A stretch of DNA of 64,000 bases from a phage. Under the pieces are notes generated by a model that saw only the letters and a program-made list of their open reading frames with translations, had not been told where the DNA came from and did no database searches. Of the stretch, positions 23,200 to 62,286 are shown piece by piece. The translations under genes and the position numbers were made by a program. The stretch lies in assembly GCA_011911785.1 (NCBI GenBank), contig GCA_011911785.1_4084.1; one strand, 5' to 3'. Position 1 is the stretch's first letter. Each line of letters begins with the position of its first letter.

Positions 23200-24129
23200 A
23201 TGAAACAACTACAAGAACTATATCAAAAAATTCTGGATGAAGGCGTAGAAAGTACTGATCGTACAGGTGTAGGTACTATCAAACTAATCGGTCAACAAAT
23301 GCGTTTTGACCTTCAACAAGGCTTTCCAGCAGTGACAACCAAACGTTTAGCTTGGAAAGCAATGACTTCAGAATTATTATGGTTCATTGAAGGTTCTCAT
23401 GATGAGCGTCGCTTGTGTGAAATTCTACACGGCACTCGTGATTGGGAAAAGAAAACAATTTGGACAGACAACTACCTTAATCAAGGTGTAGCTCTTGGAT
23501 ATTCTAATGGTGAGCTTGGACCAGTTTATGGTAAGCAATGGCGTGAATGGGAAGATTATAAATTCAGTGCCAGTACTGTAGAAATTCAGGAATTGAAAGA
23601 TAAAGGTTATAAAGTAATTGATTATACTGGTTCACATGGTGTTGTTATGCGTCGTGTTACTGACCAACTAAAACAAGTCATTGAAGGTATCAAAGCAGAT
23701 CCATACGGTCGTCGTCACATTCTAAGTGCCTGGAACGTTGGTGAGCTTGATGATATGACTTTACCACCCTGTCATAGCTTCGTACAGTTTTGTGTCGTAC
23801 AGGGTAAGCTAAGCTGTATTCTGCATCAACGTTCAGCAGATCTATTTTTGGGCGTACCATTTAACATTAGTAGCTATTCACTACTAACACATATGATTGC
23901 TCAAATTACAGGTTTAGATGTTGGTGAGTTTATTTGGAATGGTGGTGATTGTCACATTTACAAAAACCACGTTGAACAAGTAAAAGAACAACTTCAACGT
24001 GAACCACGTGAATTACCAGAACTATGGCTAGATCCTTCAATTACCGATATTGAAGATTTTACAATGGATTCTTTCAAACTTTTGAATTACAATCCAATGC
24101 CAACAATTAAAGCACCAATGGCTGTATAA
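23200..24129 (+). CDS. thyA: Thymidylate synthase
   Basis: Signature ELLWFIEGS and active-site region PPCHSFVQFCV...SCILHQRSADLFLGVPFNISSYSLL. Confidence 0.95.
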   Translation: MKQLQELYQKILDEGVESTDRTGVGTIKLIGQQMRFDLQQGFPAVTTKRLAWKAMTSELLWFIEGSHDERRLCEILHGTRDWEKKTIWTDNYLNQGVALGYSNGELGPVYGKQWREWEDYKFSASTVEIQELKDKGYKVIDYTGSHGVVMRRVTDQLKQVIEGIKADPYGRRHILSAWNVGELDDMTLPPCHSFVQFCVVQGKLSCILHQRSADLFLGVPFNISSYSLLTHMIAQITGLDVGEFIWNGGDCHIYKNHVEQVKEQLQREPRELPELWLDPSITDIEDFTMDSFKLLNYNPMPTIKAPMAV

Positions 24130-45067: not shown

Positions 45068-48000
45068 TTATTGAATATTCAATAGATTTTCGATATCAGT
45101 TCCAGTAATTGACAATCCATTTCTGAATGTATCTAATGGAATTGGTGGATAGAAGTTTTGATATTGAGTAAACTTATCAATGCTCCCCAAGTTCAATCCA
45201 TTAAAGCTATAAGACGTTCCTTTAGTAAAATTATGTTCCGCACTATACATGACACCACGTAATAGACGGTCAGTGTTTCTTACCTGAACCTTCTCATATC
45301 CAACCACAATAATATCATCATTCTGTGCCGCAGCACCTGACAGTACTGAATCAGTAATGATATATGGGCTTATTGAACGAGGTTTAGCAACATAAGTGAT
45401 TGCCTCATCTTCAACGGTTGTAATGTTAATTACACTACATCCTACTTCTTTGATGAACGTGTTATTGACCACAGGTTGTGCATACTGCCACACGCGATCA
45501 TAACTTAGTACTGGTTGAATAACATCAACATCGTATTCAAATACAGTGATTTCAATACCATCAGTCATTTTAGCTCGTACTAGTTCACCCAGGACACCTT
45601 TACCAGAGATTGGCTGATTGTAACCATTATCAATTGTAATACCATCAACTTCAAAAATCTCATTGGAAACTAACCACAAATCAATTTCATCAGGTGTGAT
45701 ACCATCATTGAATTTACCACCATATAATGTTTCGTCATAGAATACTTCATAGTTCAATGCATGTATACTGTAATGACGATTATTTTCATATAGTTTAAGT
45801 CCATTGTCATCAAACTCAGGGTCTTGGAAAGTGCGGATTCTAACTAAGTTCATTGATAATGTATAAAAACGCTCATTACTTTCACGCTTAGTTATACTAT
45901 CAAACATTAACACTACACCATTACTATCAACCAACTCTACGTTACCATTACCCAATACACGTACTGTGTATAGTTTTGGTTTTTTAGAGGATTGGATTTT
46001 ACTAGCACTTAATATAGTTACCCAGTTACCGTCTTGGAATCGTACATAATCTTCACCATCTGGCGTGAAAATCATAACCTTATCACCATCTTTCAAACCT
46101 TCATCGTGAACTTTGATTTCAGTAATTGTTTTAATTTCTGAAATTGGGAAGAAGTATTTTTCAGATTCTTTGAACACATCTTTACCCATATTCTCAATGA
46201 CAATATCATATGATGGAATACTTACAACTGCTTCTGACATATTGTAAGGGTTTTGTACGATCATACCCTCAATCTGGAATCTACTTGTGTCTTTTAATTG
46301 CTCTTGAGCAACTTCATCGAAACCGTAACCATCAACAGTGAAACGTAATTGTGCCATTGTTCTTCCTGATGGGTTTAGTTCAGAAATGTCGATGATATAA
46401 GGATCAATCTCACTATCTTTAACTTCCCATTTAATGGATTTGGTTTGTGATTCCAATGCCAAGTTATCGAATGCATTCATATCATTGAAATATTTTGCAG
46501 TATTGATACTTTCCAGTACTTCAACATATGCAGAATACATTGGATTATTCTGGTCTTGTGGTAAATCATTTAAATCAATTTCAGCCAATACAACTGATTC
46601 TCCGGTTGTTATGAATAAGTCTTCCATGAAATCAGATATGCTGTAACTTTCAGGAATCGGTAGATATTCACCTGCCGCATTCACAACATACACATATTTC
46701 CTTGGCATCATAACAAAAGCATACTTATCAACTGCACGATTACTTAAGATTTCTCTAGCAACATAATAATGATCTAGAATATTCTTATTAAATGTTTGTC
46801 GCATTGCAGATAACACATGAACGGTATCAGAATAATAACGGTCATTTAATGTGGTATCATACTTGTAGCAATAAACACCATATTCTATCTCTAGTATATT
46901 ACGAACTTGGTCTTCATTAGTAAACTCAGGGTGATTTTTCTTGATCATATCGACATATTTTTCATATAGTTCAATACTAATCTCAAAATAACCATAGTTG
47001 TAATCACTACTTGCACTGAACCCAAAAGGTAGGCGAGTATTAGGATTATCATTATAGTTCGTACCCTTAAATGGACAACCAATCTCATTAGAAACCATGT
47101 CATCAGATATATTCTTAAACATTTTCACACGAGTTGCTAATGTATTGTATTGAATATATTTCTTAACGTCTTCTAAAATGTTACTGTTGTTTGTATCAGT
47201 AGTTACCTGCTCCAAATCAGCAGTAAATTGGTCAGTCATTGCAATATCAGTTGAATGGGCTTTATACCATGCATCAATTCCTTTAATGACACCATTACTA
47301 ATATCCAAATCTGAATATTTGGTAGTCATTTCAATACCAATCTGTGAAATTAAGGTATTATTATCATATTCAGGGAATGTATAAACATATCTCTGTAATT
47401 CATAATCATTTCCTATATCCGAAGCATTAGATTGATACTTACTATTGGTTGATTTCAACTCATCAATTGTATAATTACTATCATACGGGTCACATTGAAT
47501 ATTATCATAATGCATAATAACGTCGATTTCTTGGAATCGTCTGTTAGGTGTGATAAAGTCACTTGGTAGTGAACCAATCTTTTCCCAACGTTGGGTTACG
47601 TCATTAAATTGTGCATATTCTAAATCCCAAATGTCTTTTTCAGTCTTAACCCACACACCATCAACTAAAATATAGCCATCTGGGTCAAGGTCATTACTGA
47701 TACCATTAATCAAATCATCATCAGAAGTTTTCTGTTCTATTTGAGAACGGATTTTGGTTCTGTATGGTTTAACTTCTTCGAAGTACTCAACAATTTGATT
47801 AATCAAGTTGTCATTTGAGTAGTTTTGTACGAGAGATTGTTCTAAACCTACAATATAGATATATGAGGTTTTGAATACCCAGTCAACAACACTTTGTTCA
47901 GTGTGTACGTACTTAACCATATCAAAAACAATATTACTTTGATATAAGTTGAATGAATTTTTCAACAACGCTAACGCATTACGAACGTTAACCTCATGAG

Positions 48001-51000
48001 AATTCAAAGAACCATCATCATTGTAAACATTGTACCCAGAATATAACATTGAATTCAATTCAACTGTACTATTCTCACGTCCAATAGCTTTCCAGTATAT
48101 ATTATTACGAGATGCAGTCTTGATGTATAATGTCCAAACACCATCACTATCAGTTACACGGATAATATCACCAATTTGGTAATTTTTAGTGTTTGCGTCA
48201 TCTAAACTAACTTCTTGTGTATATTCAGTGTTGCTATCGTATCCAGTATCGTACCAATCAGCCAGATTCCAGTACTGGGTCATATCCAAAGATGTACCAA
48301 GTGATTCTATGAAGTCAGCTTGTTTAATCATCTTGTGTTGACCTTCACCTCTATTTTCTAGAGTGATTGTAACAGTACTTCCAACTGTACTTGGACTGTT
48401 CATCAATTGAATGTATCCATTTGGATCAATGTGAACAAAATATACTGAACTAGAAGATAATGGTGCTGGCAGAGTTCCGATGGAACTTACAAATACTGCA
48501 TCATTCTCTTTAAAGCGGTTATCTTCTGGTGCAATTACCAATTCATTGTTAAATGATAGAACACGGAATGTAATATCATTTGGGTTCATTTTTAATGTTT
48601 TCACATTAAACACATCATTCATAACAACACTGTTAGTTGTGATGTTCTGTGAACGGTAAAAGTTATTTGCACTCTCAACAAACGCACGACGAGCTTCAAT
48701 GACATTCTGGAACCAAGTTTTATTAGAACCTAAACCAGTTTCAACTTTAGGATAAATTATTTCATTTACAACACCAGTTGAAGTAGTTTCTTGACCAATT
48801 AGTGAGTTCCATAGTGAATTCCAAATATCTGGGTTAAAGTCATAACTATCACCTTCTTTACAGAGTTGATATTGATCATGCTTCAGTACTTCGATATTGT
48901 CATTTCTATATGAAATTGTCAAAATGCTTGTATCATCATTAACTTCAAATTGCATATTACTTAGAATGAAACTATTTTCATTAATAGGTGCAAACCAAGG
49001 AACATTCAATTGTGTTGGATCTTGAATAATACGTGCAATATCAGTACAAGACTTACTACGAGTAGTCATTGGTGGAACATAAATGGTATTACGAACCCAG
49101 AAATAATAACGAACTACATATGTATCAGTGATTGGATCATATTCCATAGATGAACTGTAGTTCTCATCCATTGCAATCCCACTTGGGAGATACATAGTAT
49201 TGTTTTTATTTTTATTGGCTTGTTCTGCACAATATTTTTCCCAGTTGTATGGTTCTACTGGTGAACTAACCCATTCTAGAACATCAATAACACTGTGTGG
49301 TAATAATTTACCCCAATTATAACGCTTATATTCATTAGTTGCTTTTACATCAACGTTACCATCCTCATCAAAGATTGGACGGGTATAATCCAGATAGAAT
49401 GCAGTGCTAGTGTTCCACCACACTTTACCTACCTTTTCAGCACCCCATGCTTGTAATAGTTCACCGTTACTGCTATACTGTGCTGGGTCCACTGGAGAGA
49501 TGAAATCAACATCTTGCATTGCAACCCCAGGAATAACACCGTTAATTGGGTCAAACACATTCAAATACAATGCAGTAATGTTTGTTCTTTCATCATACGT
49601 AGTAGGACGGTCAAACAAAGTGCTTTCAGGTGCACTGTAACTATATTTTTTAGCAATATATTCATCGCGTTCTTGTTGAGTACTAAATCTACTAACATAA
49701 CGATACAAACGTGGTGCTGATTCTACTGTTGAAAAGTCAATAGTAATGGAAGTGTCAAATGGCACTACCATAACTTTTGGATCTAGTCCAGAAGTGTAGT
49801 ATTGGCATTCATCACGTAGGGCATCAGGCATAAAGTTTGTTTCATCAACAAAATAATAATAATCACCATCATTGAGTGGGATATCATCAGACAATAGTAC
49901 TTTACAATATTGCTCAGCATATGGATCTTCACTTTCAATTGGTGTAATAGAAACCATTGTAATACCAGTATCTACTAAATCATACACATTCCATTCGTTA
50001 TTGATATCTTGGAACATCCAAACAGATGTTGGGATTTTACCAGAATTATTCATATAACTAATGCGGTCTTGATTTGCAGTTTCGTAATTTAATGTGGTAT
50101 AATCAATTTCATCTAGGGTTACTGGTCCAATATTAGGTAATTGGATATTCTCACTTCTCCCATTACGCATAGGGAATGAGAATTTACCTTTTGGACGACT
50201 AATCCAGCGTGAATCTTCACCAATTTCACCATAATATACAATTTCATTCTCAGATTCAACCTTATCGGAATAACGGTCAAACGTAATCATTTGTGGTTGT
50301 TGTTTAAACTCATTATTAATTAGTTTAAATTGAAGATTTTTAACACCATCAATGTTACCATAAGAACCAACACGGAATGCCCATTCTTGTAATGCTTTAT
50401 ACTCATCAGTATTATATGATTTAGATACACGTAATACTTTTTCTAGTACTTGGTTAGTGCCTTTATCATGAATAAAACCTTTATAGAAATCAATTCGACC
50501 AGGCTCATTAGTGATCATACGTTGTAAGTAATCACGAGACTGATAGCCAATTAAGTGGTTTGAAAGTTCATTTAATTGAACATCACTAACTGGGGTTTCA
50601 TTATCATAATACTGTTGGAAATTAGACACCAAAGTTTCAAATGATGGTAATGTACCAGCTTCTAGGATGATAAATCCAGGAGCTTGTAAACGTCCAGACC
50701 ATGAACCAGTGATATATCCATACAATTTAATCAATTCTTGAACTGCACCATAGGTTGGTTCATAGATATAATCACCGAAAATCGTCTGATCATCAAAAAT
50801 AACAGCATGTTCATAAGAACTGATACTTAAACGAATAAGTGCCATGCGTTTATTTGATTCTTCAGTTGTTCTTACCGTGAATATGTTACCAATACGAGAT
50901 GTTTCAATCTCAAATTGACGTATACCCTGGTTTGAATCATCTAACAATGACCAAACACCACCACTATTTTGTGCAATTGACTGTACTGAACCAAAATCTG

Positions 51001-54000
51001 TACCAAATTTAGCATTAATTGCTGATGGGGTACAAGAAATGAATTCACCAGTACTCAATTGTTGTTGACTCCAGATTAAAAAGTCTTTTGCAATTGTATT
51101 CCAGTCCTGTTGGATACCAGATTCATCAACTTCTTCAAAAATCCAACCATGTTGCTTGAGATACTCACCATAACCACAAATAAATGTGTAAACTTCCTGG
51201 AAGGTATTCATCAAAGTTCCGTAAGGAATGGATGCATCATTTTTCCACTCATTATAATGAACAACATTACGATTATCAACTTTCAAAGATACTTTATGAC
51301 CGTTTTTAACAGGCAATTTATAATTGAATGTTGCAGAAACTAAATCATAACCATCAATTTGGTAAGCACTACCAGTCCAAGTAATTTTAATTGCACTCAT
51401 TTGCTCATTTCTAATATTATTAGAACGAACTAAACCGATAGATTGGTTTTCTTGTGAAATTAGACCAGTTGCTTCTGATGTAAATGTTAATTGATCAGCT
51501 TTAGTGAATCCACCTAGTTTATGACCCACATTAATATGAGAAGAACGAACAATTTCACCGTACTTAGTTGTAATATTTTTGTTTTGATACATCAAATAAT
51601 CACTAACAATCATTTGATAACCAATAACGCGAGTACTATTCTCACCATGTACGATTGTATCACTATTAAAGTTCAAACGTAAACGAGTATCACCATATAA
51701 AAACTGTGGTTCATTACCAGATACAGTTTTTAATGTATTATTTCGGGTATCCCAGAAATAGTTTGTGAACTGTGCAGGTTTAGCTTTGAATAACATCAAT
51801 AATTCATCATATGCAAACATTGCTGTATTCATATAAGTGAATTCCATATCACCCATATCACCATAAGTCCACGGTTCAGCACGATGATTTAGACTACCAT
51901 ATACAAGACCTAAAACTTCAGGAGCAATGTACTCAATGACACAAATATCAACACCAGATGCTGTCTGCTTGCCTGTTTTAGTGATCTTAAATGGTTGTGT
52001 ACCAAAACGTTTGTACTTGTCATATTGACCTTTACGTGCACCAAACAAGATAGTACCAGTTGAGCTATCACCTTTCTCGTTACCAACGTCCCATAACCCA
52101 CTAGGAACCATGTTACCTTGTTCGTTGATAACTAATGCCTCATATACATAAACAACATCACCATCACGTTCGCCAACTTGAACTGCGGTAGGTTCATATT
52201 CCTGGTTCCACCAAACTGGACGTTGGGAGAAACCAAACATTTCCCACGGATGGGTTGCTGGGCGATATGTACCAAATTGGTCAGTGTAGATTGCTCGCCA
52301 TGAACCACGGGCTGCTATTTGTGTTTGTTGACCATTAACCATGTAATGTGTTCCAGTATAGTTCCAAGTCATCCAGTTATTTGGATCATAATCATGTGAA
52401 CTATTACTGATACCATTGGTTGCGATGAAGTTAATATAACCACGTAGTAGTAAGTTCTTTTTCTCTTCGTCATTATACTCTGTATCTCTGTAATACGGAG
52501 TTGGGAAAAGATCAGAAGCATCTAGCTTAGGTTGGTAATCTTCATCTTTGAAAATAACATCAATACTATTGAAAATTCTATTTTCTAACTCATATATAAC
52601 GTCATCCATTTTATCAACACCGTTTATTACACGGTATGCTTTAGTGATTGCACCTGTATGACTGATGTTATAACAGCTTTGCTTACTACCAGCATTCAAA
52701 AATGTTGCTTTTTCTGGAACGTGTGCTTTCAAAATACCCAAAAACTGTGGAGTTGGTGGTACAAACGCACGAATGAAGCCAGAAGTACTTGCTACGTTAT
52801 CATAATAGAATGGGAAAGTATTATCATGACCCATATTAATAATTGTTAGAATTTCATCAACAATATTAGAAGCATTATTAGCTAAGAAGTTTGCTGGGTT
52901 CTCATTGTACAAACGGATCATTTGTGTATTGAACTTGTTTACGAAACGGAAATATTCGGATTGCATAAACAATACAGATTCAAATAGGTCAATATCTTCA
53001 TTTGCAGAATGTGCCATTAACGGTAGCATTGATGCTTCGTTTTGAATAATCTTAGTACCAACGGAGTTATCCACTAATCCTTTAGACAAACGATCTTCGT
53101 AGTCGTTGAAATCATCAACGGAACCACTGGTGATATTCTTTTGAATGATATCTTTAAAATGTAATGTAAAATTACTTTGGTTGATATAAAGAATATTATC
53201 GTTGTATGGGTTATTTTGTAAGTTGATTGGGATTTCATATGCACCCAACTCTTTATTTGGTACTTCAGTACTGCTGTATGTTCTAATTTGAATCACTGAT
53301 TCATCTTTAAGAGCTACATCTTCACCTAAAGTGATGCTTTGAACCTTGTTATTATATACATGACGTGTATAATCGGTTACATCCACACCATCAACTTGAA
53401 TTTCAATGATTTCAGTACTCTTACCATCAATAATTTTCTGGGCCAATTCAAATGTGCGATTGAAACGTTCACTTTGAATACCTTCACCACTAATTACATG
53501 CCAATCCATATAGGTTTGACGTTCTTCTTTGTAATATTGATAGGTACGATCCACTTCAGTAACATATGCATACATACCTTCTAATGGATTTTTAAAGTTT
53601 TCCATTTCGAATACAGTATTGAATACACGATACATATCAGTGTGTTCTATTTGTGGCGTTTGTTTAACGAATTGCTTTGAATCTTCCTTAGAACGAACCC
53701 AATCGGTCTTAAGGTGTAGTTCATTATCTTTACCAACTACATTATAGTAGTACAATCCAGAAATTTCAGTTTCAACACCCAAATGATCATATGTATAACG
53801 AACACTTTGTAGGAAGTTTTCGTACATATAGTAATTATAATTACCTAGTTCGATATTATAACCATATACTTTATCAGTGCCGTAATTATAGTTGATTTTA
53901 AAACCAAATAGGGATGAACCAACAAAGTTACTTGATGGATAAATTGTAGAATCATTTAATTTAACACCATCACGGTCATATAATTGGAATTGTGGGAATA

Positions 54001-55075
54001 CGTTTACACCAGATTTTGTTTGTGCTCTAATCCAGTTAACACCATTCCAGTACATGGATGTATTTTTATATACATTACCATCACGCACCAAAATAACATC
54101 ACCATTATGTGGCTCACCACTTGGGCGGTCATCAGTTTCTTCATCTGGGTCCAATGCTAGACCATATGTGCGAGAACCATCTTGCATTTTCTTAATAAAA
54201 ACTTTATAAATGCGGTTGTTTTCACCAACGTTACCTATACTAGTGAAAAGAATACGCATACCATCTTGTGGAATAATCCCGTCAATACGAATACCATCAT
54301 TTACGTCTTTTTGGACGATATCTTCTGGTTTAATTGTATCAGAGAAAAGATCCACAACACCACGGAAATGTGTCCCGTAGTTAATTAATTCGATATTTTT
54401 ATTGTACTCGATGATTGGTGCTTGTGCACGAATAAAACGAGTATCTTGTGTCATGTCAGCAGTTAGTACTGTTCCATCTTCTAGTGTTTGACCAATAGTA
54501 TACCAAAAGTTCTGTAGGGACCATGTGTTTCCGTTATCAGCACCACGTTCCATAACAATAAAGTCAGGAGTTGTGATACCATAACTATTTTTACTATCCC
54601 ACAAATAGGAACTGTAGTTGGTCATTTTGTTTGGGTTAATTGGTGGTGTCCAAGAATAGAACTTACCAGAAAATAGACGGCTCTCGTTTGAAGTTAACGT
54701 GCCGTAGTGTTCCATGTAGCCAACCAAATCATCATAAAATTGAAGCGAACGAATGCTTGTGTCATCATTACGAGACACATATGCTGTTGATAATTGATAT
54801 AGCTGACGTTCAACGGTTGCTTCGTCAAGGAAAATCTTAGCAGATGCAGCAGGAGAACCCATATCACCAATATATCCATCAACGATTTCATTATCCGCTG
54901 GATTGAACCATTGTTGAATTACATCATCACTAACCTTTTGAATGTCTTCTAAGCCTTGCATCCATTCAGGTAATCTTTTAATGAAAAGCTTCTGTTGTAC
55001 TGCTTCTGCCGTTTTAGTTGGTAGAAACTTAAAATTATTAGTCATGTATAGGACTCCATAAATTCGTTCATTCAT
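45068..55075 (-). CDS. Giant protein (3335 aa), putative baseplate wedge/fibre-network component
   Basis: Single uninterrupted 10-kb ORF; follows gp25-like and 1154-aa genes in the baseplate operon order. Confidence 0.6.
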   Translation of the reverse strand: MNERIYGVLYMTNNFKFLPTKTAEAVQQKLFIKRLPEWMQGLEDIQKVSDDVIQQWFNPADNEIVDGYIGDMGSPAASAKIFLDEATVERQLYQLSTAYVSRNDDTSIRSLQFYDDLVGYMEHYGTLTSNESRLFSGKFYSWTPPINPNKMTNYSSYLWDSKNSYGITTPDFIVMERGADNGNTWSLQNFWYTIGQTLEDGTVLTADMTQDTRFIRAQAPIIEYNKNIELINYGTHFRGVVDLFSDTIKPEDIVQKDVNDGIRIDGIIPQDGMRILFTSIGNVGENNRIYKVFIKKMQDGSRTYGLALDPDEETDDRPSGEPHNGDVILVRDGNVYKNTSMYWNGVNWIRAQTKSGVNVFPQFQLYDRDGVKLNDSTIYPSSNFVGSSLFGFKINYNYGTDKVYGYNIELGNYNYYMYENFLQSVRYTYDHLGVETEISGLYYYNVVGKDNELHLKTDWVRSKEDSKQFVKQTPQIEHTDMYRVFNTVFEMENFKNPLEGMYAYVTEVDRTYQYYKEERQTYMDWHVISGEGIQSERFNRTFELAQKIIDGKSTEIIEIQVDGVDVTDYTRHVYNNKVQSITLGEDVALKDESVIQIRTYSSTEVPNKELGAYEIPINLQNNPYNDNILYINQSNFTLHFKDIIQKNITSGSVDDFNDYEDRLSKGLVDNSVGTKIIQNEASMLPLMAHSANEDIDLFESVLFMQSEYFRFVNKFNTQMIRLYNENPANFLANNASNIVDEILTIINMGHDNTFPFYYDNVASTSGFIRAFVPPTPQFLGILKAHVPEKATFLNAGSKQSCYNISHTGAITKAYRVINGVDKMDDVIYELENRIFNSIDVIFKDEDYQPKLDASDLFPTPYYRDTEYNDEEKKNLLLRGYINFIATNGISNSSHDYDPNNWMTWNYTGTHYMVNGQQTQIAARGSWRAIYTDQFGTYRPATHPWEMFGFSQRPVWWNQEYEPTAVQVGERDGDVVYVYEALVINEQGNMVPSGLWDVGNEKGDSSTGTILFGARKGQYDKYKRFGTQPFKITKTGKQTASGVDICVIEYIAPEVLGLVYGSLNHRAEPWTYGDMGDMEFTYMNTAMFAYDELLMLFKAKPAQFTNYFWDTRNNTLKTVSGNEPQFLYGDTRLRLNFNSDTIVHGENSTRVIGYQMIVSDYLMYQNKNITTKYGEIVRSSHINVGHKLGGFTKADQLTFTSEATGLISQENQSIGLVRSNNIRNEQMSAIKITWTGSAYQIDGYDLVSATFNYKLPVKNGHKVSLKVDNRNVVHYNEWKNDASIPYGTLMNTFQEVYTFICGYGEYLKQHGWIFEEVDESGIQQDWNTIAKDFLIWSQQQLSTGEFISCTPSAINAKFGTDFGSVQSIAQNSGGVWSLLDDSNQGIRQFEIETSRIGNIFTVRTTEESNKRMALIRLSISSYEHAVIFDDQTIFGDYIYEPTYGAVQELIKLYGYITGSWSGRLQAPGFIILEAGTLPSFETLVSNFQQYYDNETPVSDVQLNELSNHLIGYQSRDYLQRMITNEPGRIDFYKGFIHDKGTNQVLEKVLRVSKSYNTDEYKALQEWAFRVGSYGNIDGVKNLQFKLINNEFKQQPQMITFDRYSDKVESENEIVYYGEIGEDSRWISRPKGKFSFPMRNGRSENIQLPNIGPVTLDEIDYTTLNYETANQDRISYMNNSGKIPTSVWMFQDINNEWNVYDLVDTGITMVSITPIESEDPYAEQYCKVLLSDDIPLNDGDYYYFVDETNFMPDALRDECQYYTSGLDPKVMVVPFDTSITIDFSTVESAPRLYRYVSRFSTQQERDEYIAKKYSYSAPESTLFDRPTTYDERTNITALYLNVFDPINGVIPGVAMQDVDFISPVDPAQYSSNGELLQAWGAEKVGKVWWNTSTAFYLDYTRPIFDEDGNVDVKATNEYKRYNWGKLLPHSVIDVLEWVSSPVEPYNWEKYCAEQANKNKNNTMYLPSGIAMDENYSSSMEYDPITDTYVVRYYFWVRNTIYVPPMTTRSKSCTDIARIIQDPTQLNVPWFAPINENSFILSNMQFEVNDDTSILTISYRNDNIEVLKHDQYQLCKEGDSYDFNPDIWNSLWNSLIGQETTSTGVVNEIIYPKVETGLGSNKTWFQNVIEARRAFVESANNFYRSQNITTNSVVMNDVFNVKTLKMNPNDITFRVLSFNNELVIAPEDNRFKENDAVFVSSIGTLPAPLSSSSVYFVHIDPNGYIQLMNSPSTVGSTVTITLENRGEGQHKMIKQADFIESLGTSLDMTQYWNLADWYDTGYDSNTEYTQEVSLDDANTKNYQIGDIIRVTDSDGVWTLYIKTASRNNIYWKAIGRENSTVELNSMLYSGYNVYNDDGSLNSHEVNVRNALALLKNSFNLYQSNIVFDMVKYVHTEQSVVDWVFKTSYIYIVGLEQSLVQNYSNDNLINQIVEYFEEVKPYRTKIRSQIEQKTSDDDLINGISNDLDPDGYILVDGVWVKTEKDIWDLEYAQFNDVTQRWEKIGSLPSDFITPNRRFQEIDVIMHYDNIQCDPYDSNYTIDELKSTNSKYQSNASDIGNDYELQRYVYTFPEYDNNTLISQIGIEMTTKYSDLDISNGVIKGIDAWYKAHSTDIAMTDQFTADLEQVTTDTNNSNILEDVKKYIQYNTLATRVKMFKNISDDMVSNEIGCPFKGTNYNDNPNTRLPFGFSASSDYNYGYFEISIELYEKYVDMIKKNHPEFTNEDQVRNILEIEYGVYCYKYDTTLNDRYYSDTVHVLSAMRQTFNKNILDHYYVAREILSNRAVDKYAFVMMPRKYVYVVNAAGEYLPIPESYSISDFMEDLFITTGESVVLAEIDLNDLPQDQNNPMYSAYVEVLESINTAKYFNDMNAFDNLALESQTKSIKWEVKDSEIDPYIIDISELNPSGRTMAQLRFTVDGYGFDEVAQEQLKDTSRFQIEGMIVQNPYNMSEAVVSIPSYDIVIENMGKDVFKESEKYFFPISEIKTITEIKVHDEGLKDGDKVMIFTPDGEDYVRFQDGNWVTILSASKIQSSKKPKLYTVRVLGNGNVELVDSNGVVLMFDSITKRESNERFYTLSMNLVRIRTFQDPEFDDNGLKLYENNRHYSIHALNYEVFYDETLYGGKFNDGITPDEIDLWLVSNEIFEVDGITIDNGYNQPISGKGVLGELVRAKMTDGIEITVFEYDVDVIQPVLSYDRVWQYAQPVVNNTFIKEVGCSVINITTVEDEAITYVAKPRSISPYIITDSVLSGAAAQNDDIIVVGYEKVQVRNTDRLLRGVMYSAEHNFTKGTSYSFNGLNLGSIDKFTQYQNFYPPIPLDTFRNGLSITGTDIENLLNIQ

Positions 55076-58655: not shown

Positions 58656-58684
58656 CCAAAAGAAAAGCACTCCGAAGAGTGCTT
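58656..58684 (-). terminator. Minus-strand terminator with UUCG tetraloop
   Basis: On minus strand aagcacuc-uucg-gagugcuu followed by UUCUUUUGG. Confidence 0.6.
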
Positions 58685-58690
58685 AGTAAA

Positions 58691-59086
58691 TTATAATTTA
58701 GATGTTGTGAATGTCGCCATTCTATTATTACTTCTGGCATCAAACACTATAGTTAGTTGTTCTAATTTATCAAGCATTACATACTCTAAAATTATATCCA
58801 AACGATAACCATATTCAACATTACTAACTGTTAGATTTTTTAAATTCAAACGTGGGTCTAATGAAATAATTCTACGAGCGTCAGCTTCTAAAAGATTTTT
58901 TGTATTATAACCATCAAGTTCAAAAATCAAATCCCAAGCAATGAAACCATAATCAGCATCAAATGCTCTTTCACCTTTCTTTGTATTGAAGTGGTTCATC
59001 AAATCCTGTCTCACCAACTCAGCATCATACAGAGTTTGTGTTTTACCCACAACAGGAGTAGAGAAACCTTTAAAAACTATTGCCAT
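58691..59086 (-). CDS. Baseplate wedge protein, gp25/GPW-like
   Basis: 131 aa; motif KKGERAFDADYGFIAWDLIFE matches the gp25-family GER...FG...L.FE signature. Confidence 0.65.
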   Translation of the reverse strand: MAIVFKGFSTPVVGKTQTLYDAELVRQDLMNHFNTKKGERAFDADYGFIAWDLIFELDGYNTKNLLEADARRIISLDPRLNLKNLTVSNVEYGYRLDIILEYVMLDKLEQLTIVFDARSNNRMATFTTSKL

Positions 59087-59099
59087 AGACTTTCCTCAT

Positions 59100-59588
59100 T
59101 TATACGGATTCAACAATCCTTGCCATTTTTTCAGCACGAGAAGTTGTTTGACGATACCAAGCGGAATCACGCATTTCTTTGCCAGCGGTTTTATAATCAC
59201 CACGACCCAATGCTGCCATTGCTTTCTTAAAGTTCAATACACGAGATTTACCCATTTGGAATACCATCATCCAAAGTACACGTTGTACTTGAATAGGTGC
59301 AGTCATTCCGAATTGATCGTAAATCTCTTTTGCTTCTCTGTATGCATTTAGGGAATCTTTTTGAAGTAATGCTTCAGCTTCAGCTTCCGTTAGCCCTGCA
59401 CTGAAATTTTCACCTTTTAGTACTAAGTGACCATATCCAATGGTATCTAGTCCTAGGCTATCTTTATAAACTCTGAATTTACCATTCTTGAAATAACCTA
59501 ATTTAGTTTGGAAAGCAATAGTACCTTCAAACTCTTTAATTTCTTTCAAATACTGTGCATCATCAGGTTTAATTTCCCATTTACTCAT
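59100..59588 (-). CDS. Lysozyme, GH24 (T4 e-like)
   Basis: EFEG...YKDSLGLDTIGYGHL...MVFQMG...SAWYRQT matches T4 lysozyme catalytic region. Confidence 0.9.
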   Translation of the reverse strand: MSKWEIKPDDAQYLKEIKEFEGTIAFQTKLGYFKNGKFRVYKDSLGLDTIGYGHLVLKGENFSAGLTEAEAEALLQKDSLNAYREAKEIYDQFGMTAPIQVQRVLWMMVFQMGKSRVLNFKKAMAALGRGDYKTAGKEMRDSAWYRQTTSRAEKMARIVESV

Positions 59589-59622
59589 ATACTTCTCCTA
59601 TAATATTTATTGGATAAAATAT

Positions 59623-62286
59623 TTATTGACATGCCTCAATTCTACGTGCCATTAACTCTGCACGACGAGTTGTTTGACGATACCAAGCGGAACTACGTAT
59701 ATGAGCAGCAGCACCACGATAATCACCTTTAGCTAAACATCCAAGCATACCCTTGAATTTTTGAACTTTGTATTTGCCCATTTGGAATACCATTTGACAT
59801 AGTACTTGTTGAGCAATAACAGGTGTTTTTAAATCCCAGGCCGCATATATTGATTTGGCATCATTAATTGCTTGCGTACTGTCTCGTACTAATATTGCTT
59901 CAGCTTCTGCTTCAGTTATGCCACCAGAAAAATCTTCACCTCCGGCAATAAGGTGTCCATATCCAATTGTAGGGAATCCACGGCTATCAATATAACGCCA
60001 GAATTTTCCATTTCTGAAATATCCAAGTGCTGTTTGATATTGGATAGTACCTTCGTGTTCTTTAAGTTCGGATATAAATTGGGAATCACCCGGAGCAACT
60101 TTCCATCCAACGGCAGTTTTATCAACATTACCTACATTATAATTTTGTTCAACTTTTGGAGCGGTTCCTGCATTTCGAGGCTTACGTTCTCTACGACGAG
60201 GAACATGACGAGAACCACGTTGTGAATAACCAGTTCCAATAGTTCGTATGCGAGTTGATATTACCAATTCATCACTATCAGCAGATGGTCTGACCACATC
60301 TTTAGGGTTATTTTGTGTTGATGGTTGACCACCAATTAATGTTTTATTCGCCGCAGCAGAACCCTGACCAGTTACAGTTGTGTAGAATAATCCAGGATCA
60401 ACTGAACCACTAAAACCATAGATATTAGATGAGCGAACTCTTATTTCAAATCGTAATATACCATTAGCAGTTCCTATTACTTGTCCTTTTTCAACAACAT
60501 CTTTATTGAATAGGTCAGAAGTTAAACCATAGAAAACAGATTTATAACCAGATTTATGCTCAACAATAAGAGCATCACCACTGATACCAACAATCCCACC
60601 ATCTGGTGCAACCACACTTCCACGGGCTTGAATTTCCCATCCACTACTATCACGCTTGGTTCCATTCTCGGTCGTTACACCCTTACCCCAATAACCATTC
60701 TGGCGAATAGTACCGCTACATGGCATAAGCATATGCAAACCTTCAAACGTCTGCGAATAACCAGTCATTCCTGGTTCAGCCGCCATTAAATCTTGTGTTT
60801 GAACTTCACTAGTCTCTGGGGCATAATTTACAAATTGAATTGCTTCTGTTTCTTGTTGCTCTGCAAGTGTAGGTTGAACATCATTTGCTGGTTGTGGCTC
60901 AACTGGAGATGTTGTACTACCTTGACCACCACCACTTATACCAGGATCAACCCTATCACCGTGGTTTTCTGCATCTTTCCAGTTAGCAATCATATGAATG
61001 TGGTCATTAAGACCCACTGATGGAGTTTTGAAGTCAGGAGCCATGAATGCAGCACTACCACTATTACCTGCACTATCAACCGTTAGGTTTTGACCACCAC
61101 CACTAATGTTAACGGATGAACCACCAATAACGTTTGCAGAGGATGAACCTTTAATAGATGCAGTTGACCCAGCCGTAATATCAGTACTGCTACCACTTTG
61201 AAGACGTAATGAAGCACCAGTAACCAAACGAAGATCAGCACCAGAATTAATTACAACCTGACCATTGACCTTAGCATCCAAATTACCGACCAATTCCAGT
61301 TTGGTATTTCCACCAACACGAGTATTGAAGTCTTGCCCACTTTCAATATTATAAGAACGACCTGCAACCATGTTAATATCTTGACCTGCACGAATGTTTA
61401 TGTTTTTATCACAGTGCATTTCAATATCACCATCGCCAGTGAATTTAATACGAGCCGTACCATCACGGTTAATTAATAAAACATTACCAGTGGCTTCAGA
61501 AATAAGAAGTTGTGCACCACTACGTGTTTTAATAACAATACCTTCATTCTTTCTGGAACCAACACGAGTGTCATTAACTGGGTTGTTAAATTGTGTGTCT
61601 TGGTATCCATCAGGGTCTTGATCCCATGTTGGCTTGGTCAATTCTTCTTCTGTATATCCATCATCAAGAATAAAACTATTACCACGAGGTGTACTCATAC
61701 CATATACAGTACTGGTTGTTTGACGAGTACTGCTGCGGTTTGCAACACCTGCTTCATCATCGTATAATAAGTTTTGTTTTTTCAATCCTTCAACAGCAGG
61801 AACGTTAATATATTTGTCTTGCATGTCAGTTGTGATTGTGTTACGATCATAATCAGTTACTGGTAATGGCATATCAGTACCATTGTAATTGGTATCCGCA
61901 GTTGCCATTCCAGGAACCATTGTATTCATACGTTGGTCATAAACACATCCAATCCAGTAAGCTTGGAATGTACGTGCTTGTGCAAAAATAACAACAACAG
62001 TACATCCCACATCTGGTGGAACGGCCCAAAAACCATAACCCTTTGGATATTGTCCATAACTATCTGCACTCGGTATTCCTGGAGTTTTGCCAGCAAACGG
62101 AGCCATATAAGAAGCTTCAATCCATGAATCTTTAGAGTTTTTATCACTTTGTGAACCTTGTATCCATACTTTTAGCTTACCAGATTTCGTAGGATCACGG
62201 TTATCCATAACGGTTGCTAATTGTGGATAAGATGGGTCAAAACGACCCAACTGTTCCTTTGCATACTTTTTACTTGTATCTGCCAT
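59623..62286 (-). CDS. Baseplate central spike, gp5-like, with C-terminal GH24 lysozyme domain
   Basis: N-terminal DPTKSGKLKVWIQG like gp5/VgrG OB-fold motif; beta-helix-like repeats; M23-like segment; C-terminal ~150 aa colinear with the adjacent lysozyme. Confidence 0.75.
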   Translation of the reverse strand: MADTSKKYAKEQLGRFDPSYPQLATVMDNRDPTKSGKLKVWIQGSQSDKNSKDSWIEASYMAPFAGKTPGIPSADSYGQYPKGYGFWAVPPDVGCTVVVIFAQARTFQAYWIGCVYDQRMNTMVPGMATADTNYNGTDMPLPVTDYDRNTITTDMQDKYINVPAVEGLKKQNLLYDDEAGVANRSSTRQTTSTVYGMSTPRGNSFILDDGYTEEELTKPTWDQDPDGYQDTQFNNPVNDTRVGSRKNEGIVIKTRSGAQLLISEATGNVLLINRDGTARIKFTGDGDIEMHCDKNINIRAGQDINMVAGRSYNIESGQDFNTRVGGNTKLELVGNLDAKVNGQVVINSGADLRLVTGASLRLQSGSSTDITAGSTASIKGSSSANVIGGSSVNISGGGQNLTVDSAGNSGSAAFMAPDFKTPSVGLNDHIHMIANWKDAENHGDRVDPGISGGGQGSTTSPVEPQPANDVQPTLAEQQETEAIQFVNYAPETSEVQTQDLMAAEPGMTGYSQTFEGLHMLMPCSGTIRQNGYWGKGVTTENGTKRDSSGWEIQARGSVVAPDGGIVGISGDALIVEHKSGYKSVFYGLTSDLFNKDVVEKGQVIGTANGILRFEIRVRSSNIYGFSGSVDPGLFYTTVTGQGSAAANKTLIGGQPSTQNNPKDVVRPSADSDELVISTRIRTIGTGYSQRGSRHVPRRRERKPRNAGTAPKVEQNYNVGNVDKTAVGWKVAPGDSQFISELKEHEGTIQYQTALGYFRNGKFWRYIDSRGFPTIGYGHLIAGGEDFSGGITEAEAEAILVRDSTQAINDAKSIYAAWDLKTPVIAQQVLCQMVFQMGKYKVQKFKGMLGCLAKGDYRGAAAHIRSSAWYRQTTRRAELMARRIEACQ

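What the first reader, a model, noticed from the sequence alone, without database searches (positions are those of the whole stretch)
59100..62286. gp5-like spike with lysozyme at the extreme C-terminus plus a paralogous free lysozyme; M23-like segment lacks canonical His motifs
The 887-aa spike has an OB-fold-like N-terminus, beta-helix-like repeats, a segment resembling an M23/LytM fold (IVEHKSGYKSVFYGLTSDLFNKDVVEKGQVIGTANG) but with ILRFEI where HxH is expected, and a C-terminal GH24 lysozyme domain. Directly downstream is a separate 162-aa GH24 lysozyme closely colinear with that C-terminal domain (e.g. GYFKNGKF / GYFRNGKF, MVFQMGK, SAWYRQTT). In T4 gp5 the lysozyme is internal with a C-terminal beta-helix, so this is a different architecture and an apparent duplication between virion lysin and endolysin.
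Basis: partly seen in the sequence, partly recalled or inferred. Interest (0 to 1): 0.55.

Follow-up and report, generated by a model that had tools for sequence, protein, structure and literature searches.

The report
Jumbo-phage tail spike carrying lysozyme cargo
This is the cell-puncturing tail spike of a known E. coli jumbo phage: it carries a catalytically dead M23/LytM domain plus a lysozyme at its far end, next to an old duplicate lysozyme gene, and most of this layout has already been published for related phages.

Summary
The window is an Asteriusvirus (Rak2-like jumbo coliphage), 99.5% identical to Escherichia phage A4. The 887-aa ORF (59623-62286, minus strand) is the baseplate central spike. 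It has a gp5/VgrG OB-fold, a VgrG-type beta-helix and an invariant HxH motif, then a linker, an M23/LytM-fold domain and a C-terminal GH24 lysozyme with Glu/Asp/Thr intact. The M23 fold is confirmed (AF2 core pLDDT >94; every listed PDB Foldseek hit is an M23/LytM domain). None of 40 family members has an HxH motif or a conserved metal ligand, so the domain is a degenerate, non-enzymatic LytM. The 162-aa ORF downstream is 55% identical (E 4e-59) to the spike's lysozyme. That duplication predates the split of the Rak2-like genera. This free lysozyme probably shares an operon with the spike and gp25. Its ortholog LysUE1 is muralytic in vitro, and four virion proteomes never detected it. It is probably not the main endolysin, because a third paralog (TM+LysM+GH24) is the published candidate. 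The RaK2 (2013) and CBB (2017) papers already describe the architecture, the three lysozymes and a possible M23 domain. What is added here is the family-wide loss of catalytic residues, the internal HxH and the swappable cargo. Interest is modest.

The parts
59623..62286 (-). Central spike (cell-puncturing) protein, 887 aa. It is the ortholog of A4_584, phAPEC6 gp241, RaK2 gp078, GAP32_234 and CBB_240.
   Evidence: ORF. 99.5% DNA identity to phage A4. [quoted passage not shown] Orthologs were detected in virions by MS.
61939..62220 (-). N-terminal OB-fold, residues 23-116 (gp5/VgrG/gpV 'Phage_base_V' domain), which in known spikes docks the spike onto the hub and tube.
   Evidence: PF04717 scores 29.4 bits, above the 23.8 cut-off, and matches 40 of 40 family members.
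61552..61938 (-). Conserved segment of unknown fold, residues 117-245, at the position where T4 gp5 carries its lysozyme domain.
   Evidence: Many invariant columns. No Pfam hit. AF2 pLDDT is mostly below 50.
61057..61551 (-). Triple-beta-helix-type repeats, about residues 246-410 (VgrG/gp5 needle).
   Evidence: DUF2345 matches 35 of 40 members and Gp5_trimer_C matches 4 of 40. phmmer hits the P. aeruginosa VgrG1 beta-helix at E 1.9e-4. AF2 shows regular short strands with pLDDT 70-85.
60994..61002 (-). Invariant HxH motif (H429-I430-H431) about 20 residues after the helix. It is the signature of the iron-binding histidine cage of spike apex domains, but here it is internal.
   Evidence: H429 and H431 are present in 40 of 40 homologs. 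The significance of the motif comes from the P2 gpV paper. Metal binding was not tested.
60748..60993 (-). Post-HxH segment and Gly/Pro/Ser-rich flexible linker, residues 432-513.
   Evidence: Variable, gap-rich alignment columns. Low pLDDT.
60325..60747 (-). Degenerate LytM (M23-fold) domain, residues 514-654, with no metal ligands.
   Evidence: AF2 core pLDDT is above 94. There are 54 PDB Foldseek hits below 1e-3, and all 50 listed are M23/LytM domains. PF01551 matches 28 of 31 and 34 of 40 members, with best E-values of 6e-11 and 7e-10. None of 40 members has an HxH motif.
60106..60324 (-). Second linker, residues 655-727, with a conserved S-x-D-S-x-E-L-V strand and a strongly basic R/K stretch.
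   Evidence: Invariant V675, G691 and P696. pLDDT about 50.
59626..60105 (-). C-terminal GH24 (T4-type) lysozyme domain, residues 728-887, with catalytic E745, D767 and T773.
   Evidence: PF00959 scores 34 bits against a 22.3 cut-off. It matches the T4 gp5 and T4 lysozyme PDB sequences. E745 and D767 are each conserved in 39 of 40 members and T773 in 27 of 40.
59100..59588 (-). Free GH24 lysozyme, 162 aa, with E21, D43 and T49. It is a paralog of the spike's C-terminal domain and the ortholog of LysUE1, RaK2 gp073, GAP32_233 and CBB_239.
   Evidence: The ortholog was purified and shown to be muralytic. It was not detected in the CBB, GAP32, RaK2 or phAPEC6 virion proteomes.
58691..59086 (-). 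gp25-like baseplate wedge protein, 131 aa, the last gene of the spike / lysozyme / gp25 block.
   Evidence: PF04965 scores 36.6 bits. PHROG 43 matches. The gap to the lysozyme gene is 13 nt.
58665..58684 (-). Terminator-like hairpin followed by a T-run, directly after the gp25-like gene.
   Evidence: It is a consensus match only.

Best explanation
The 887-aa protein is the trimeric central spike (cell-puncturing device) of a Rak2-like jumbo myovirus. Its N-terminal OB-fold seats it on the baseplate hub. A VgrG/gp5-type beta-helix forms the needle. An invariant HxH motif closes the helix, probably as a metal-binding histidine cage like the P2 gpV apex.

Unlike T4 gp5 (lysozyme inserted between OB-fold and helix) or P2 gpV (chain ends at the apex), the chain continues. 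A flexible linker leads to a C-terminal cargo of two domains: a LytM/M23-fold domain that has lost every metal ligand and cannot be a peptidase, and a GH24 muramidase with an intact catalytic triad.

On tail contraction the needle crosses the outer membrane, and the tethered lysozyme cuts glycan strands locally so the tube can pass. This step is inferred by analogy with T4 gp5 and with 'evolved' VgrG spikes that carry C-terminal effectors. The dead LytM domain most likely acts as a binding module. It could hold peptidoglycan, or hold or gate a hydrolase as other degenerate LytM domains do. This is also inferred.

The adjacent 162-aa gene is an ancient paralog of the cargo lysozyme. It is a soluble, active muramidase, probably co-transcribed with spike and gp25, and it does not seem to be a stable virion component. 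It most likely serves as a late-made accessory lysozyme, not as the principal endolysin.
For: Identity and context:
- The window is 99.5% identical to Asteriusvirus phage A4. The gene order hub, spike, lysozyme, gp25, gp6-like, giant protein is the same in A4, phAPEC6, RaK2, GAP32 and XaC1.
- The OB-fold matches 40 of 40 family members, the VgrG beta-helix 35 of 40, M23 34 of 40 and lysozyme 30 of 40. There is a VgrG1 PDB hit and T4 gp5 lysozyme PDB hits.
- Spike orthologs were found in virions by MS in phAPEC6, CBB and GAP32.

Dead LytM domain:
- AF2 core pLDDT is above 94.
- All 50 listed Foldseek PDB hits are M23/LytM. They include the degenerate regulators DipM, EnvC and SpoIIQ and the cyanophage A4 ejection protein gp28.
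- A sequence profile hits LasA, SpoIIQ, DipM and EnvC.
- None of 40 members has HxH in the domain. The ligand-equivalent columns are variable or hydrophobic, yet P522, G525, W550, H577, G580, R616 and the D630-P631-G632 motif are invariant.
- The domain subfamily occurs almost only in spikes of about 870-980 aa, always at the same position.

Lysozymes:
- E745 and D767 are each present in 39 of 40 members.
- The free copy is 55% identical to the cargo domain.
- In an NJ tree the spike-domain and free-copy orthologs form separate clades across four genera plus the unclassified XaC1.
- The free-copy ortholog LysUE1 was purified and lyses cells (PMC12805682).

Operon and cargo modularity:
- Intergenic gaps are 34 nt and 13 nt with ribosome-binding sites, and the only terminator-like hairpin between or after these three genes follows gp25.
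- Distant spike homologs carry GH19, M15, GH24 or no C-terminal domain.
Against: - No structure of this spike exists. The trimeric state, the fate of the cargo (retained, folded back or cleaved) and metal binding by HxH are all untested.
- Where the published MS peptides map on the protein is unknown, so retention of the C-terminal cargo in virions is not shown.
- RaK2 proteomics failed to detect its spike at all.
- A globular cargo of about 46 kDa per chain downstream of a piercing tip is mechanically awkward.
- The window protein's own M23 Pfam score (20.1 bits) is below the curated cut-off (28.7). Membership rests on the family-level hits and on the fold.
- The role of the dead LytM domain is pure inference.
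- Non-detection of the 18-kDa free lysozyme by MS is weak evidence. The equally small gp25 was also missed in phAPEC6 and CBB.
Confidence: 0.8

Rival explanations
1. The free 162-aa lysozyme is the phage's principal endolysin. On this view it accumulates in the cytoplasm late in infection and is released through a holin to lyse the cell, and its place in the baseplate cluster is only a remnant of the duplication.
For: - It is soluble with no TM segment.
- The catalytic triad is intact.
- Ortholog LysUE1 is muralytic, more so with EDTA, like typical Gram-negative endolysins.
- It was never detected in virions in four proteomes, whereas gp25 was seen in two.
- Its nearest relatives outside the jumbo clade (Erwinia phage KEY, Pantoea phage AAS21; 48% identity) lie beside holin genes.
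- Some depositors annotate it as 'endolysin'.
Against: - Its position between spike and gp25 is conserved across four genera plus the unclassified XaC1, with no holin or spanin nearby.
- It appears to share a transcript with baseplate genes.
- A third paralog with TM, LysM and GH24 domains is the published endolysin candidate and was reported toxic on expression.
- The RaK2 paper found no T-type holin in that genome.
Confidence: 0.3
2. The free lysozyme is a low-copy baseplate or hub component. On this view it docks in trans on the spike, for example on the conserved 117-245 segment where T4 gp5 has its lysozyme or on the dead LytM domain, so that the virion carries two lysozyme species.
For: - The gene is embedded in the hub, spike, gp25 block and the arrangement is conserved across genera.
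- The spike has a conserved segment of unknown fold exactly where T4 gp5 carries its lysozyme.
- Degenerate LytM domains characteristically bind partner proteins, according to the descriptions of the DipM, EnvC and SpoIIQ structures that match.
- Small, low-copy proteins are often missed by MS; gp25 was missed in phAPEC6 and CBB.
Against: The free lysozyme was not detected in any of four virion proteomes. No interaction evidence exists.
Confidence: 0.15
3. The M23-like domain is still an active peptidoglycan endopeptidase that uses a non-canonical active site. That would make the spike a bifunctional enzyme like phi29 gp13 or cyanophage A4 gp28.
For: - The fold is well conserved.
- Virion proteins combining a glycosidase with an active M23 domain exist; cyanophage A4 gp28 is the top structural hit.
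- The invariant residues H577, R616 and D630 could in principle form another site.
Against: - All four canonical His/Asp positions are lost, and those columns are variable or hydrophobic in 40 of 40 members.
- H577 corresponds to a structural His that is not a metal ligand in canonical M23 (from general knowledge of the family, not tested here).
- Known LytM domains lacking these ligands (EnvC, NlpD, DipM, SpoIIQ) are inactive; this is established knowledge of those proteins.
Confidence: 0.04
4. The C-terminal cargo is removed or released by proteolysis during assembly, as T4 gp5 is cleaved. On this view the mature needle ends at the HxH apex, and the LytM-lysozyme piece either stays non-covalently bound or is lost.
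For: - The HxH motif normally marks the end of a spike.
- Long flexible linkers follow it.
- T4 gp5 is cleaved during assembly (established knowledge).
- A bulky cargo at a piercing tip is awkward.
Against: - The RaK2 paper reports that the virion proteins it discusses migrate at their predicted masses, with no sign of processing, although its spike itself was not seen.
- No conserved cleavage motif was identified here.
- Cargo-less relatives P0089 and P0097 also continue for about 80 residues beyond their HxH motif.
Confidence: 0.15

Closest known systems
RaK2 gp078, CBB_240, GAP32_234 and phAPEC6 gp241 (published orthologs in Rak2-like jumbo phages; PHROG 13211)
   Same: They are the same protein family, 57-80% identical with the same length and domain order, and have the same neighbouring free lysozyme and gp25. 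The RaK2 paper (2013) calls it an unusually large baseplate lysozyme with a beta-helix and a C-terminal lysozyme, and lists three paralogous lysozymes. The CBB paper (2017) adds the gp5 OB-fold, a VgrG HHpred hit and a possible central M23 domain.
   Different: There is no biological difference. Those papers do not note that the M23 domain lacks all catalytic residues in every family member. They also do not note the invariant internal HxH, or that the duplication predates the genera.
Bacteriophage T4 gp5 (tail-associated lysozyme, cell-puncturing device) and its paralog gp e
   Same: Both have an N-terminal OB-fold, a triple beta-helix needle and a GH24 lysozyme domain with the same catalytic residues. 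In both phages the tail lysozyme is paralogous to a free lysozyme (the T4 facts are established knowledge).
   Different: In T4 the lysozyme sits between the OB-fold and the helix, and the helix ends bluntly and is capped by the PAAR protein gp5.4. Here the lysozyme is at the extreme C-terminus after the helix, an HxH motif and a dead LytM domain. The free paralog is adjacent to the spike gene here, whereas T4 gene e is distant from gene 5. All three lysozymes of this phage group share a 13-aa or longer insertion between the catalytic Glu and Asp that T4 lysozyme lacks.
P2 gpV, phi92 gp138 and R-pyocin PA0616 spikes with an iron-loaded apex
   Same: They share the OB-fold, the beta-helix and a conserved HxH motif after the helix.
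   Different: In those spikes the chain ends about 12 residues after HxH. Here 456 residues follow. Iron binding was not tested.
'Evolved' T6SS VgrG spikes with C-terminal effector domains (for example V. cholerae VgrG-3, with a peptidoglycan-degrading domain)
   Same: The beta-helix is homologous to that of VgrG1. The logic of hanging an enzymatic effector on the C-terminal end of the needle is the same, and the effector is swappable: GH24, GH19, M15 or none in relatives.
   Different: VgrG has the gp27-like hub fused at its N-terminus, whereas here the hub is a separate upstream gene. This is a phage virion protein, not a secretion-system component.
Degenerate LytM (dLytM) factors: E. coli EnvC and NlpD, Caulobacter DipM, Bacillus SpoIIQ, H. 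pylori Csd2
   Same: They have an M23 fold with the metal ligands lost, and they are among the best structural and profile matches.
   Different: Those are cellular regulators or scaffolds that bind amidases or other partners. No partner is known here. The domain is fused to a lysozyme in a virion protein and forms its own narrow sequence subfamily.
Virion proteins pairing a glycosidase with an active M23 peptidase: cyanophage A4 gp28 (ejection protein) and phi29 gp13 (tail tip)
   Same: They have the same two-domain cargo logic, a glycan-cutting domain plus an M23-fold domain delivered by the virion. A4 gp28 is the top Foldseek hit. The phi29 gp13 comparison is from memory.
   Different: In those proteins the M23 domain keeps its catalytic residues. 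Here it is dead. They are also not OB-fold/beta-helix central spikes.

Membership tests
gp5/VgrG/gpV-type central spike of contractile injection systems | N-terminal OB-fold (Phage_base_V, PF04717) | tested here: met
   29.4 bits against a 23.8 cut-off at residues 23-116. Matches 40 of 40 homologs.
gp5/VgrG/gpV-type central spike of contractile injection systems | Triple-stranded beta-helix repeats after the OB-fold | tested here: met
   DUF2345 matches 35 of 40 and Gp5_trimer_C 4 of 40. The VgrG1 beta-helix is hit at E 1.9e-4. For the window protein alone DUF2345 scores 28.8 bits, just under the 30.7 cut-off.
gp5/VgrG/gpV-type central spike of contractile injection systems | Encoded in the baseplate hub/wedge gene cluster | tested here: met
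   It is flanked by a hub-like structural protein and by gp25-like and gp6-like genes. The order is the same in RaK2, GAP32 and XaC1.
gp5/VgrG/gpV-type central spike of contractile injection systems | Present in the virion as a trimer on the tail-tube tip | not testable with these tools
   Orthologs were detected in virions by MS according to papers. Trimer state and location are not resolved in any Rak2-like phage.
T4 gp5 architecture specifically | Lysozyme domain inserted between the OB-fold and the beta-helix | tested here: not met
   The lysozyme is at residues 728-887, after the helix. Residues 117-245 have no lysozyme hit.
Apex-domain spikes (P2 gpV / phi92 gp138) | Conserved HxH motif after the beta-helix | tested here: met
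   H429 and H431 are present in 40 of 40 members.
Apex-domain spikes (P2 gpV / phi92 gp138) | HxH lies near the C-terminus, so the apex is the end of the chain | tested here: not met
   456 residues follow H431.
Apex-domain spikes (P2 gpV / phi92 gp138) | An Fe ion bound by six His residues of the trimer | not testable with these tools
   Needs a structure or metal analysis.
Peptidase M23 (active LytM-type metallopeptidase) | M23 fold | tested here: met
   AF2 core pLDDT above 94. There are 54 PDB hits below 1e-3, and all 50 listed are M23/LytM.
Peptidase M23 (active LytM-type metallopeptidase) | Sequence match to PF01551 above the curated cut-off | tested here: inconclusive
   The window protein scores 20.1-22.4 bits against a 28.7 cut-off. 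At family level 34 of 40 members match, with a best E-value of 7e-10.
Peptidase M23 (active LytM-type metallopeptidase) | Zn ligands HxxxD and HxH plus the catalytic His | tested here: not met
   None of 40 members has HxH. The equivalent columns read S/R/N, E/I/T, I/V and variable. The only invariant His (H577) lies in the non-ligand 'xDHxxGY' strand.
Degenerate LytM (dLytM) regulatory domains (EnvC/NlpD/DipM/SpoIIQ type) | LytM fold with the metal ligands lost but the domain conserved | tested here: met
   DipM, EnvC and SpoIIQ are among the best matches.
Degenerate LytM (dLytM) regulatory domains (EnvC/NlpD/DipM/SpoIIQ type) | Binds and regulates a partner protein, typically a peptidoglycan hydrolase | not testable with these tools
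   No complex prediction or experiment was available.
GH24 T4-type lysozyme (both copies) | PF00959 match above the cut-off | tested here: met
   34.0 bits for the spike and 38.2 bits for the free copy, against a 22.3 cut-off.
GH24 T4-type lysozyme (both copies) | Catalytic Glu, Asp and Thr aligned with T4 lysozyme E11, D20 and T26 | tested here: met
   E745/D767/T773 and E21/D43/T49 in the alignment with T4 e. Family conservation is 39/40, 39/40 and 27/40.
GH24 T4-type lysozyme (both copies) | Muramidase activity | not testable with these tools
   Free-copy ortholog LysUE1 lyses cells in vitro (PMC12805682). The spike domain has not been assayed.
Canonical endolysin of a lysis cassette (free 162-aa copy) | Encoded next to holin and spanin genes | tested here: not met
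   It lies between the spike and gp25 in all five genomes examined.
Canonical endolysin of a lysis cassette (free 162-aa copy) | Required for lysis from within | not testable with these tools
   Needs genetics.

The most novel reading that the evidence does not exclude
The dead LytM domain is not a relic. On this reading it is a delivered hydrolase regulator. Like EnvC, NlpD or DipM, it would use its metal-free groove to bind and switch a peptidoglycan hydrolase. The target could be the lysozyme fused to it (kept off in the virion, released in the periplasm), the free paralog encoded next door, or the host's own amidases AmiA/B/C. If so, the spike injects an 'activator plus enzyme' pair and partly hijacks the cell's own autolytic machinery to open the wall.
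Probability: 0.15. Interest if true: 0.7.

Novelty: already known. Interest (0 to 1): 0.3.

Why it matters
It shows how jumbo myoviruses of the Rak2 group equip their puncturing needle. Wall-degrading cargo hangs on the far end of the spike, as in 'evolved' VgrG effectors, and is not inserted in the middle as in T4. The cargo is swappable among relatives (GH24, GH19, M15 or none). The one piece not yet in the literature is that the M23 domain is catalytically dead in every family member yet strongly conserved. That makes the spike a possible virion-borne example of the degenerate-LytM regulator class and a tractable test case. For phage-derived enzybiotics it clarifies that this genus has three related lysozymes with probably different jobs. 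Overall it is a correct but largely already published observation.

Tried and rejected
I used it only to place the H260-equivalent position, not as evidence of homology.
2. Full-length AF2 as a monomer gave mean pLDDT 68 and below 50 for residues 117-245. It says nothing about the trimer or about domain contacts, so I ran no fold search on it. T4-lysozyme fusion entries would also have swamped such a search.
3. phmmer of the LytM region against 1.84 billion representatives found only 10 proteins and no canonical active M23. No active ancestor could be identified this way.
4. The sigma-70 promoter scan gave 17 sites against 14.9 ± 4.1 expected. No promoter inference was drawn.
5. I looked for a recent gene-conversion tract between the two lysozyme copies. 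There are only patches of 74-78% identity, and the longest identical run is about 24 nt. Rejected.
6. I tried to locate the MS peptides on the spike, to see whether the cargo is retained. phAPEC6 supplements are not held, and the CBB supplements give detection calls only.
7. A literature search for a degenerate LytM domain in a central spike found nothing. The cryo-EM paper on the Rak2-like phage phiKp24 does not mention the spike's lysozyme, baseplate hub or M23 domain.
8. I considered that HxH proves a terminal apex. This was rejected as stated, because even the cargo-less relatives P0089 and P0097 continue about 80 residues beyond their HxH.

Full report
**Where the window comes from.** Positions 59100-62286 are 99.5% identical over their full length to Escherichia phage A4 (ON286972, genus Asteriusvirus). 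They are about 77% identical to PBECO4, 121Q, phAPEC6 and some 35 other jumbo coliphages and Salmonella phages. [quoted passage not shown] The feature therefore belongs to a sequenced and annotated phage group, the Rak2-like jumbo myoviruses.

**Check of the observation.** Both ORFs are on the minus strand as described: 887 aa at 59623-62286 and 162 aa at 59100-59588. BLASTP aligns spike residues 728-885 with residues 4-161 of the small protein, without gaps, at 55% identity and E 4e-59. At DNA level the copies lie in register 526 nt apart with patches of 74-78% identity and no long identical tract.

**Anatomy of the spike, N-terminal half.**
- Pfam finds the gp5/VgrG OB-fold (Phage_base_V) at residues 23-116, above its cut-off, and DUF2345 (the VgrG beta-helix) at 280-321.
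- Across 40 full-length homologs (36-80% identical, alignment A1), the OB-fold is hit in 40, DUF2345 in 35 and Gp5_trimer_C in 4.
- Residues 240-470 alone hit the beta-helix of P. aeruginosa VgrG1 in the PDB at E 1.9e-4.
- Between OB-fold and helix lies a strongly conserved segment (117-245) with no family match and low AF2 confidence. This is the position where T4 gp5 carries its lysozyme.
- About 20 residues after the helix there is an L-N-x-H-x-H motif whose two histidines (H429, H431) are invariant in all 40 proteins.
- According to the P2 gpV study, HxH is the one universally conserved feature of spike apex domains, where three copies cage an Fe ion. The same motif also registers trimers in fibres.
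- I infer a histidine cage at this point. This is not tested. It is atypical because 456 residues follow it.

**Anatomy of the spike, C-terminal cargo: the M23-like domain.** After a Gly/Pro/Ser-rich linker comes the M23-like domain.
- The window protein's own Pfam match is sub-threshold (20.1 bits against 28.7). At family level, however, 28 of 31 and 34 of 40 members hit PF01551, with best E-values of 6e-11 and 7e-10.
- A profile of the region hits LasA, SpoIIQ, DipM, zoocin A and EnvC in the PDB.
- An AF2 model of residues 470-720 has a core (about 514-654) with pLDDT above 94.
- Foldseek against the PDB gives 54 hits below 1e-3, and all 50 listed are M23/LytM domains. They are led by the cyanophage A4 ejection protein gp28 and by DipM, and include EnvC, SpoIIQ, Csd1/2/3, lysostaphin and LytM.
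- The viral structure library returns M23 domains of tape-measure proteins, tail proteins and lysins.
- The fold assignment is therefore solid.

**The M23-like domain is catalytically dead.**
- No member of the family has an HxH motif in this domain.
- The columns equivalent to the HxxxD and HxH ligands are S/R/N, E/I/T, I/V and a fully variable position.
- The only invariant histidine (H577) lies in the non-ligand 'DHxxGY' strand.
- The domain is nevertheless under strong constraint, with P522, G525, W550, H577, G580, R616 and D630-P631-G632 invariant.
- It is almost confined to spikes of this type. A search of 1.84 billion representative proteins with the domain alone found 10 proteins, 8 of them 870-980 aa spikes with the domain at the same place.
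- It is therefore a degenerate LytM domain in the sense of EnvC, NlpD, DipM and SpoIIQ: a binding module, not a peptidase.

**The two lysozymes of the window.**
- A second linker (655-727, with a conserved strand and a very basic stretch) leads to a GH24 domain at 728-887. It scores above the Pfam cut-off and matches T4 gp5 and T4 lysozyme in the PDB.
- Aligned with T4 lysozyme, E745, D767 and T773 correspond to E11, D20 and T26. The first two are each conserved in 39 of 40 homologs and T773 in 27 of 40.
- The free 162-aa protein has E21, D43 and T49.

**A third lysozyme paralog in the genus.** phAPEC6 gp293 (308 aa) has an N-terminal TM segment, a LysM domain and a GH24 domain, and is 30-34% identical to the other two. 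Its ortholog lies just beyond the start of the window. All three paralogs share an insertion of 13 or more residues between the catalytic Glu and Asp that T4 lysozyme lacks.

**Age of the duplication.** In a neighbour-joining tree the spike-borne domains of A4, phAPEC6, RaK2, GAP32 and XaC1 form one clade. The free lysozymes form a second clade, with the gp293 type outside both. Within one genome the two copies are 44-60% identical, whereas orthologs are 52-79% identical. The duplication therefore predates the divergence of Asteriusvirus, Alcyoneusvirus, Mimasvirus and the XaC1 lineage, and both copies have been kept ever since.

**Context.**
- The order hub-like structural protein, spike, free lysozyme, gp25-like, gp6-like wedge protein, 3335-aa giant protein is the same in A4, phAPEC6, GAP32 and XaC1. 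It is also the same in RaK2, apart from four small inserted ORFs.
- The spike and lysozyme genes are separated by 34 nt with an AGGAG ribosome-binding site, and the lysozyme and gp25 genes by 13 nt.
- The only terminator-like hairpin between or after these three genes follows gp25, at 58684-58665.
- The three genes therefore look co-transcribed. This is an inference from sequence only.

**What is already published.**
- The RaK2 paper (2013) states that the phage encodes three lysozymes (ORF029, 073, 078) with 50-66% similar lysozyme domains. It describes gp078 (886 aa) as one of the largest baseplate lysozymes, with 'a very unusual domain composition': a beta-helix flanked by two unmatched regions plus a C-terminal lysozyme.
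- The CBB paper (2017) describes CBB_238, 239 and 240 as gp25, a T4-type lysozyme and a gp5-OB-fold protein with a C-terminal lysozyme. It contrasts this with T4 gp5 and notes a possible central M23 domain (E 6.5e-4) that is also found in the other Rak2-like phages.
- The same paper reports that only the gp25 and spike homologs, never the free lysozyme, have been confirmed as virion proteins. It names the TM-LysM-lysozyme protein (CBB_187) as the predicted endolysin, toxic on expression.
- phAPEC6 proteomics detected the spike (gp241, 7 peptides) but not gp242.
- The free-lysozyme ortholog LysUE1 of Asteriusvirus UE-S1 has been purified. It lyses E. coli, more strongly with EDTA.
- No structure of the baseplate spike of any Rak2-like phage was found. 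No paper discussing a degenerate LytM domain in a central spike was found either.

**Most likely mechanism.**
- Shown here or in the cited papers: this is a virion protein with spike-type OB-fold and needle domains, encoded in the baseplate hub cluster, carrying a dead LytM fold and an intact-looking GH24 domain at its C-terminal end.
- Inferred: the trimer forms the puncturing needle, closed by a histidine cage. The three C-terminal arms are tethered by flexible linkers, probably packed back against the needle. On contraction they reach the periplasm, where the lysozyme locally cuts glycan strands.
- The architecture works like an 'evolved' VgrG that carries its effector on the far end of the needle. 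It is evidently modular: more distant spike homologs carry GH19, M15 peptidase, GH24 or no C-terminal domain.
- The pairing of a glycan-cutting domain with an M23 fold recalls cyanophage A4 gp28 (lytic transglycosylase plus active M23). It also recalls phi29 gp13 (from memory). The simplest history is a bifunctional cargo whose peptidase half lost catalysis and was kept for binding.
- Whether it binds peptidoglycan, gates its own lysozyme, docks the free paralog or engages host amidases cannot be decided with these tools.

**Role of the free lysozyme.** It is an active, soluble muramidase that appears to be made together with baseplate proteins, and it has not been seen in four virion proteomes. 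I rate a role as a non-virion, late accessory lysozyme most likely. A role as the principal endolysin is plausible but less likely, given the TM-LysM-GH24 paralog and the lack of a lysis cassette. A role as a low-copy hub component is possible.

**Verdict.** The 'endolysin' label is unproven. The finding is not new for this phage group. The additions from this analysis are the family-wide catalytic death of the LytM domain, the invariant internal HxH, the age of the duplication and the cargo modularity. Interest is 0.3. The most novel surviving reading, a delivered dLytM regulator of wall hydrolases, has a probability of about 0.15.

Noticed in passing
Just outside the window start; phAPEC6 locus L003:22101-23027 (minus strand): The genus has a third GH24 paralog of 308 aa, with an N-terminal TM segment, a LysM domain and a lysozyme domain. 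It is 30-34% identical to the two copies in the window and is the published endolysin candidate (CBB_187 type). It is flanked by a ribosome hibernation-factor-like gene, not by a holin.
   Followed up: partly
Proteins P0088, P0091, P0093, P0094, P0101, P0102, P0106 and P0107 (metagenomic spike homologs): Distant spike homologs lack the L-N-x-H-x-H motif. After the beta-helix they instead share a conserved R-x-P-x-x-E-P-x-x-x-H-E-N-L-D/N-P motif, followed by different cargo: GH19, M15_4 peptidase, GH24 or nothing. P0089 and P0097 have an HxH and also a C-terminal H/Y-E-P motif. This may be an alternative tip or metal site.
   Followed up: no
window 61552-61938 (minus strand), spike residues 117-245: A highly conserved segment between the OB-fold and the beta-helix has no family match and very low AF2 confidence. 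It sits exactly where T4 gp5 has its lysozyme domain, and could be a docking surface for the hub or another subunit.
   Followed up: partly
window 58665-58684 (minus strand): A strong terminator-like hairpin (8-bp stem, TTCG loop, T-run) lies directly after the gp25-like gene. It is the only one between or after the spike, lysozyme and gp25 genes, which suggests the three form one transcription unit.
   Followed up: partly
window 45068-55075 (minus strand): A 3335-aa ORF lies downstream of the gp6-like wedge gene (the 382-kDa phAPEC6 gp245 ortholog, detected in virions). It is a giant baseplate or fibre-associated protein with no function assigned here.
   Followed up: no
Locus L006 (Xanthomonas phage XaC1) and proteins P0067, P0069, P0070, P0073 and P0075: In one subclade the spike-borne lysozyme has lost 7 residues of the Glu-Asp insertion, and in all but P0067 and P0073 the Thr26-equivalent is Ser. 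In XaC1, the one genome of this subclade examined, the free lysozyme keeps both. The two paralogs are evolving under different constraints.
   Followed up: partly
Locus L004:4391-5884 (Klebsiella phage RaK2): RaK2 has four small hypothetical ORFs, two on the opposite strand, inserted between the spike and free-lysozyme genes. This breaks the tight operon seen in A4, GAP32 and XaC1.
   Followed up: no
window, about position 24000: GC skew changes sign near 24 kb (positive before, negative after). This may mark a switch in the predominant coding strand; gene orientation was checked only for 45-64 kb, where the large ORFs are on the minus strand.
   Followed up: no
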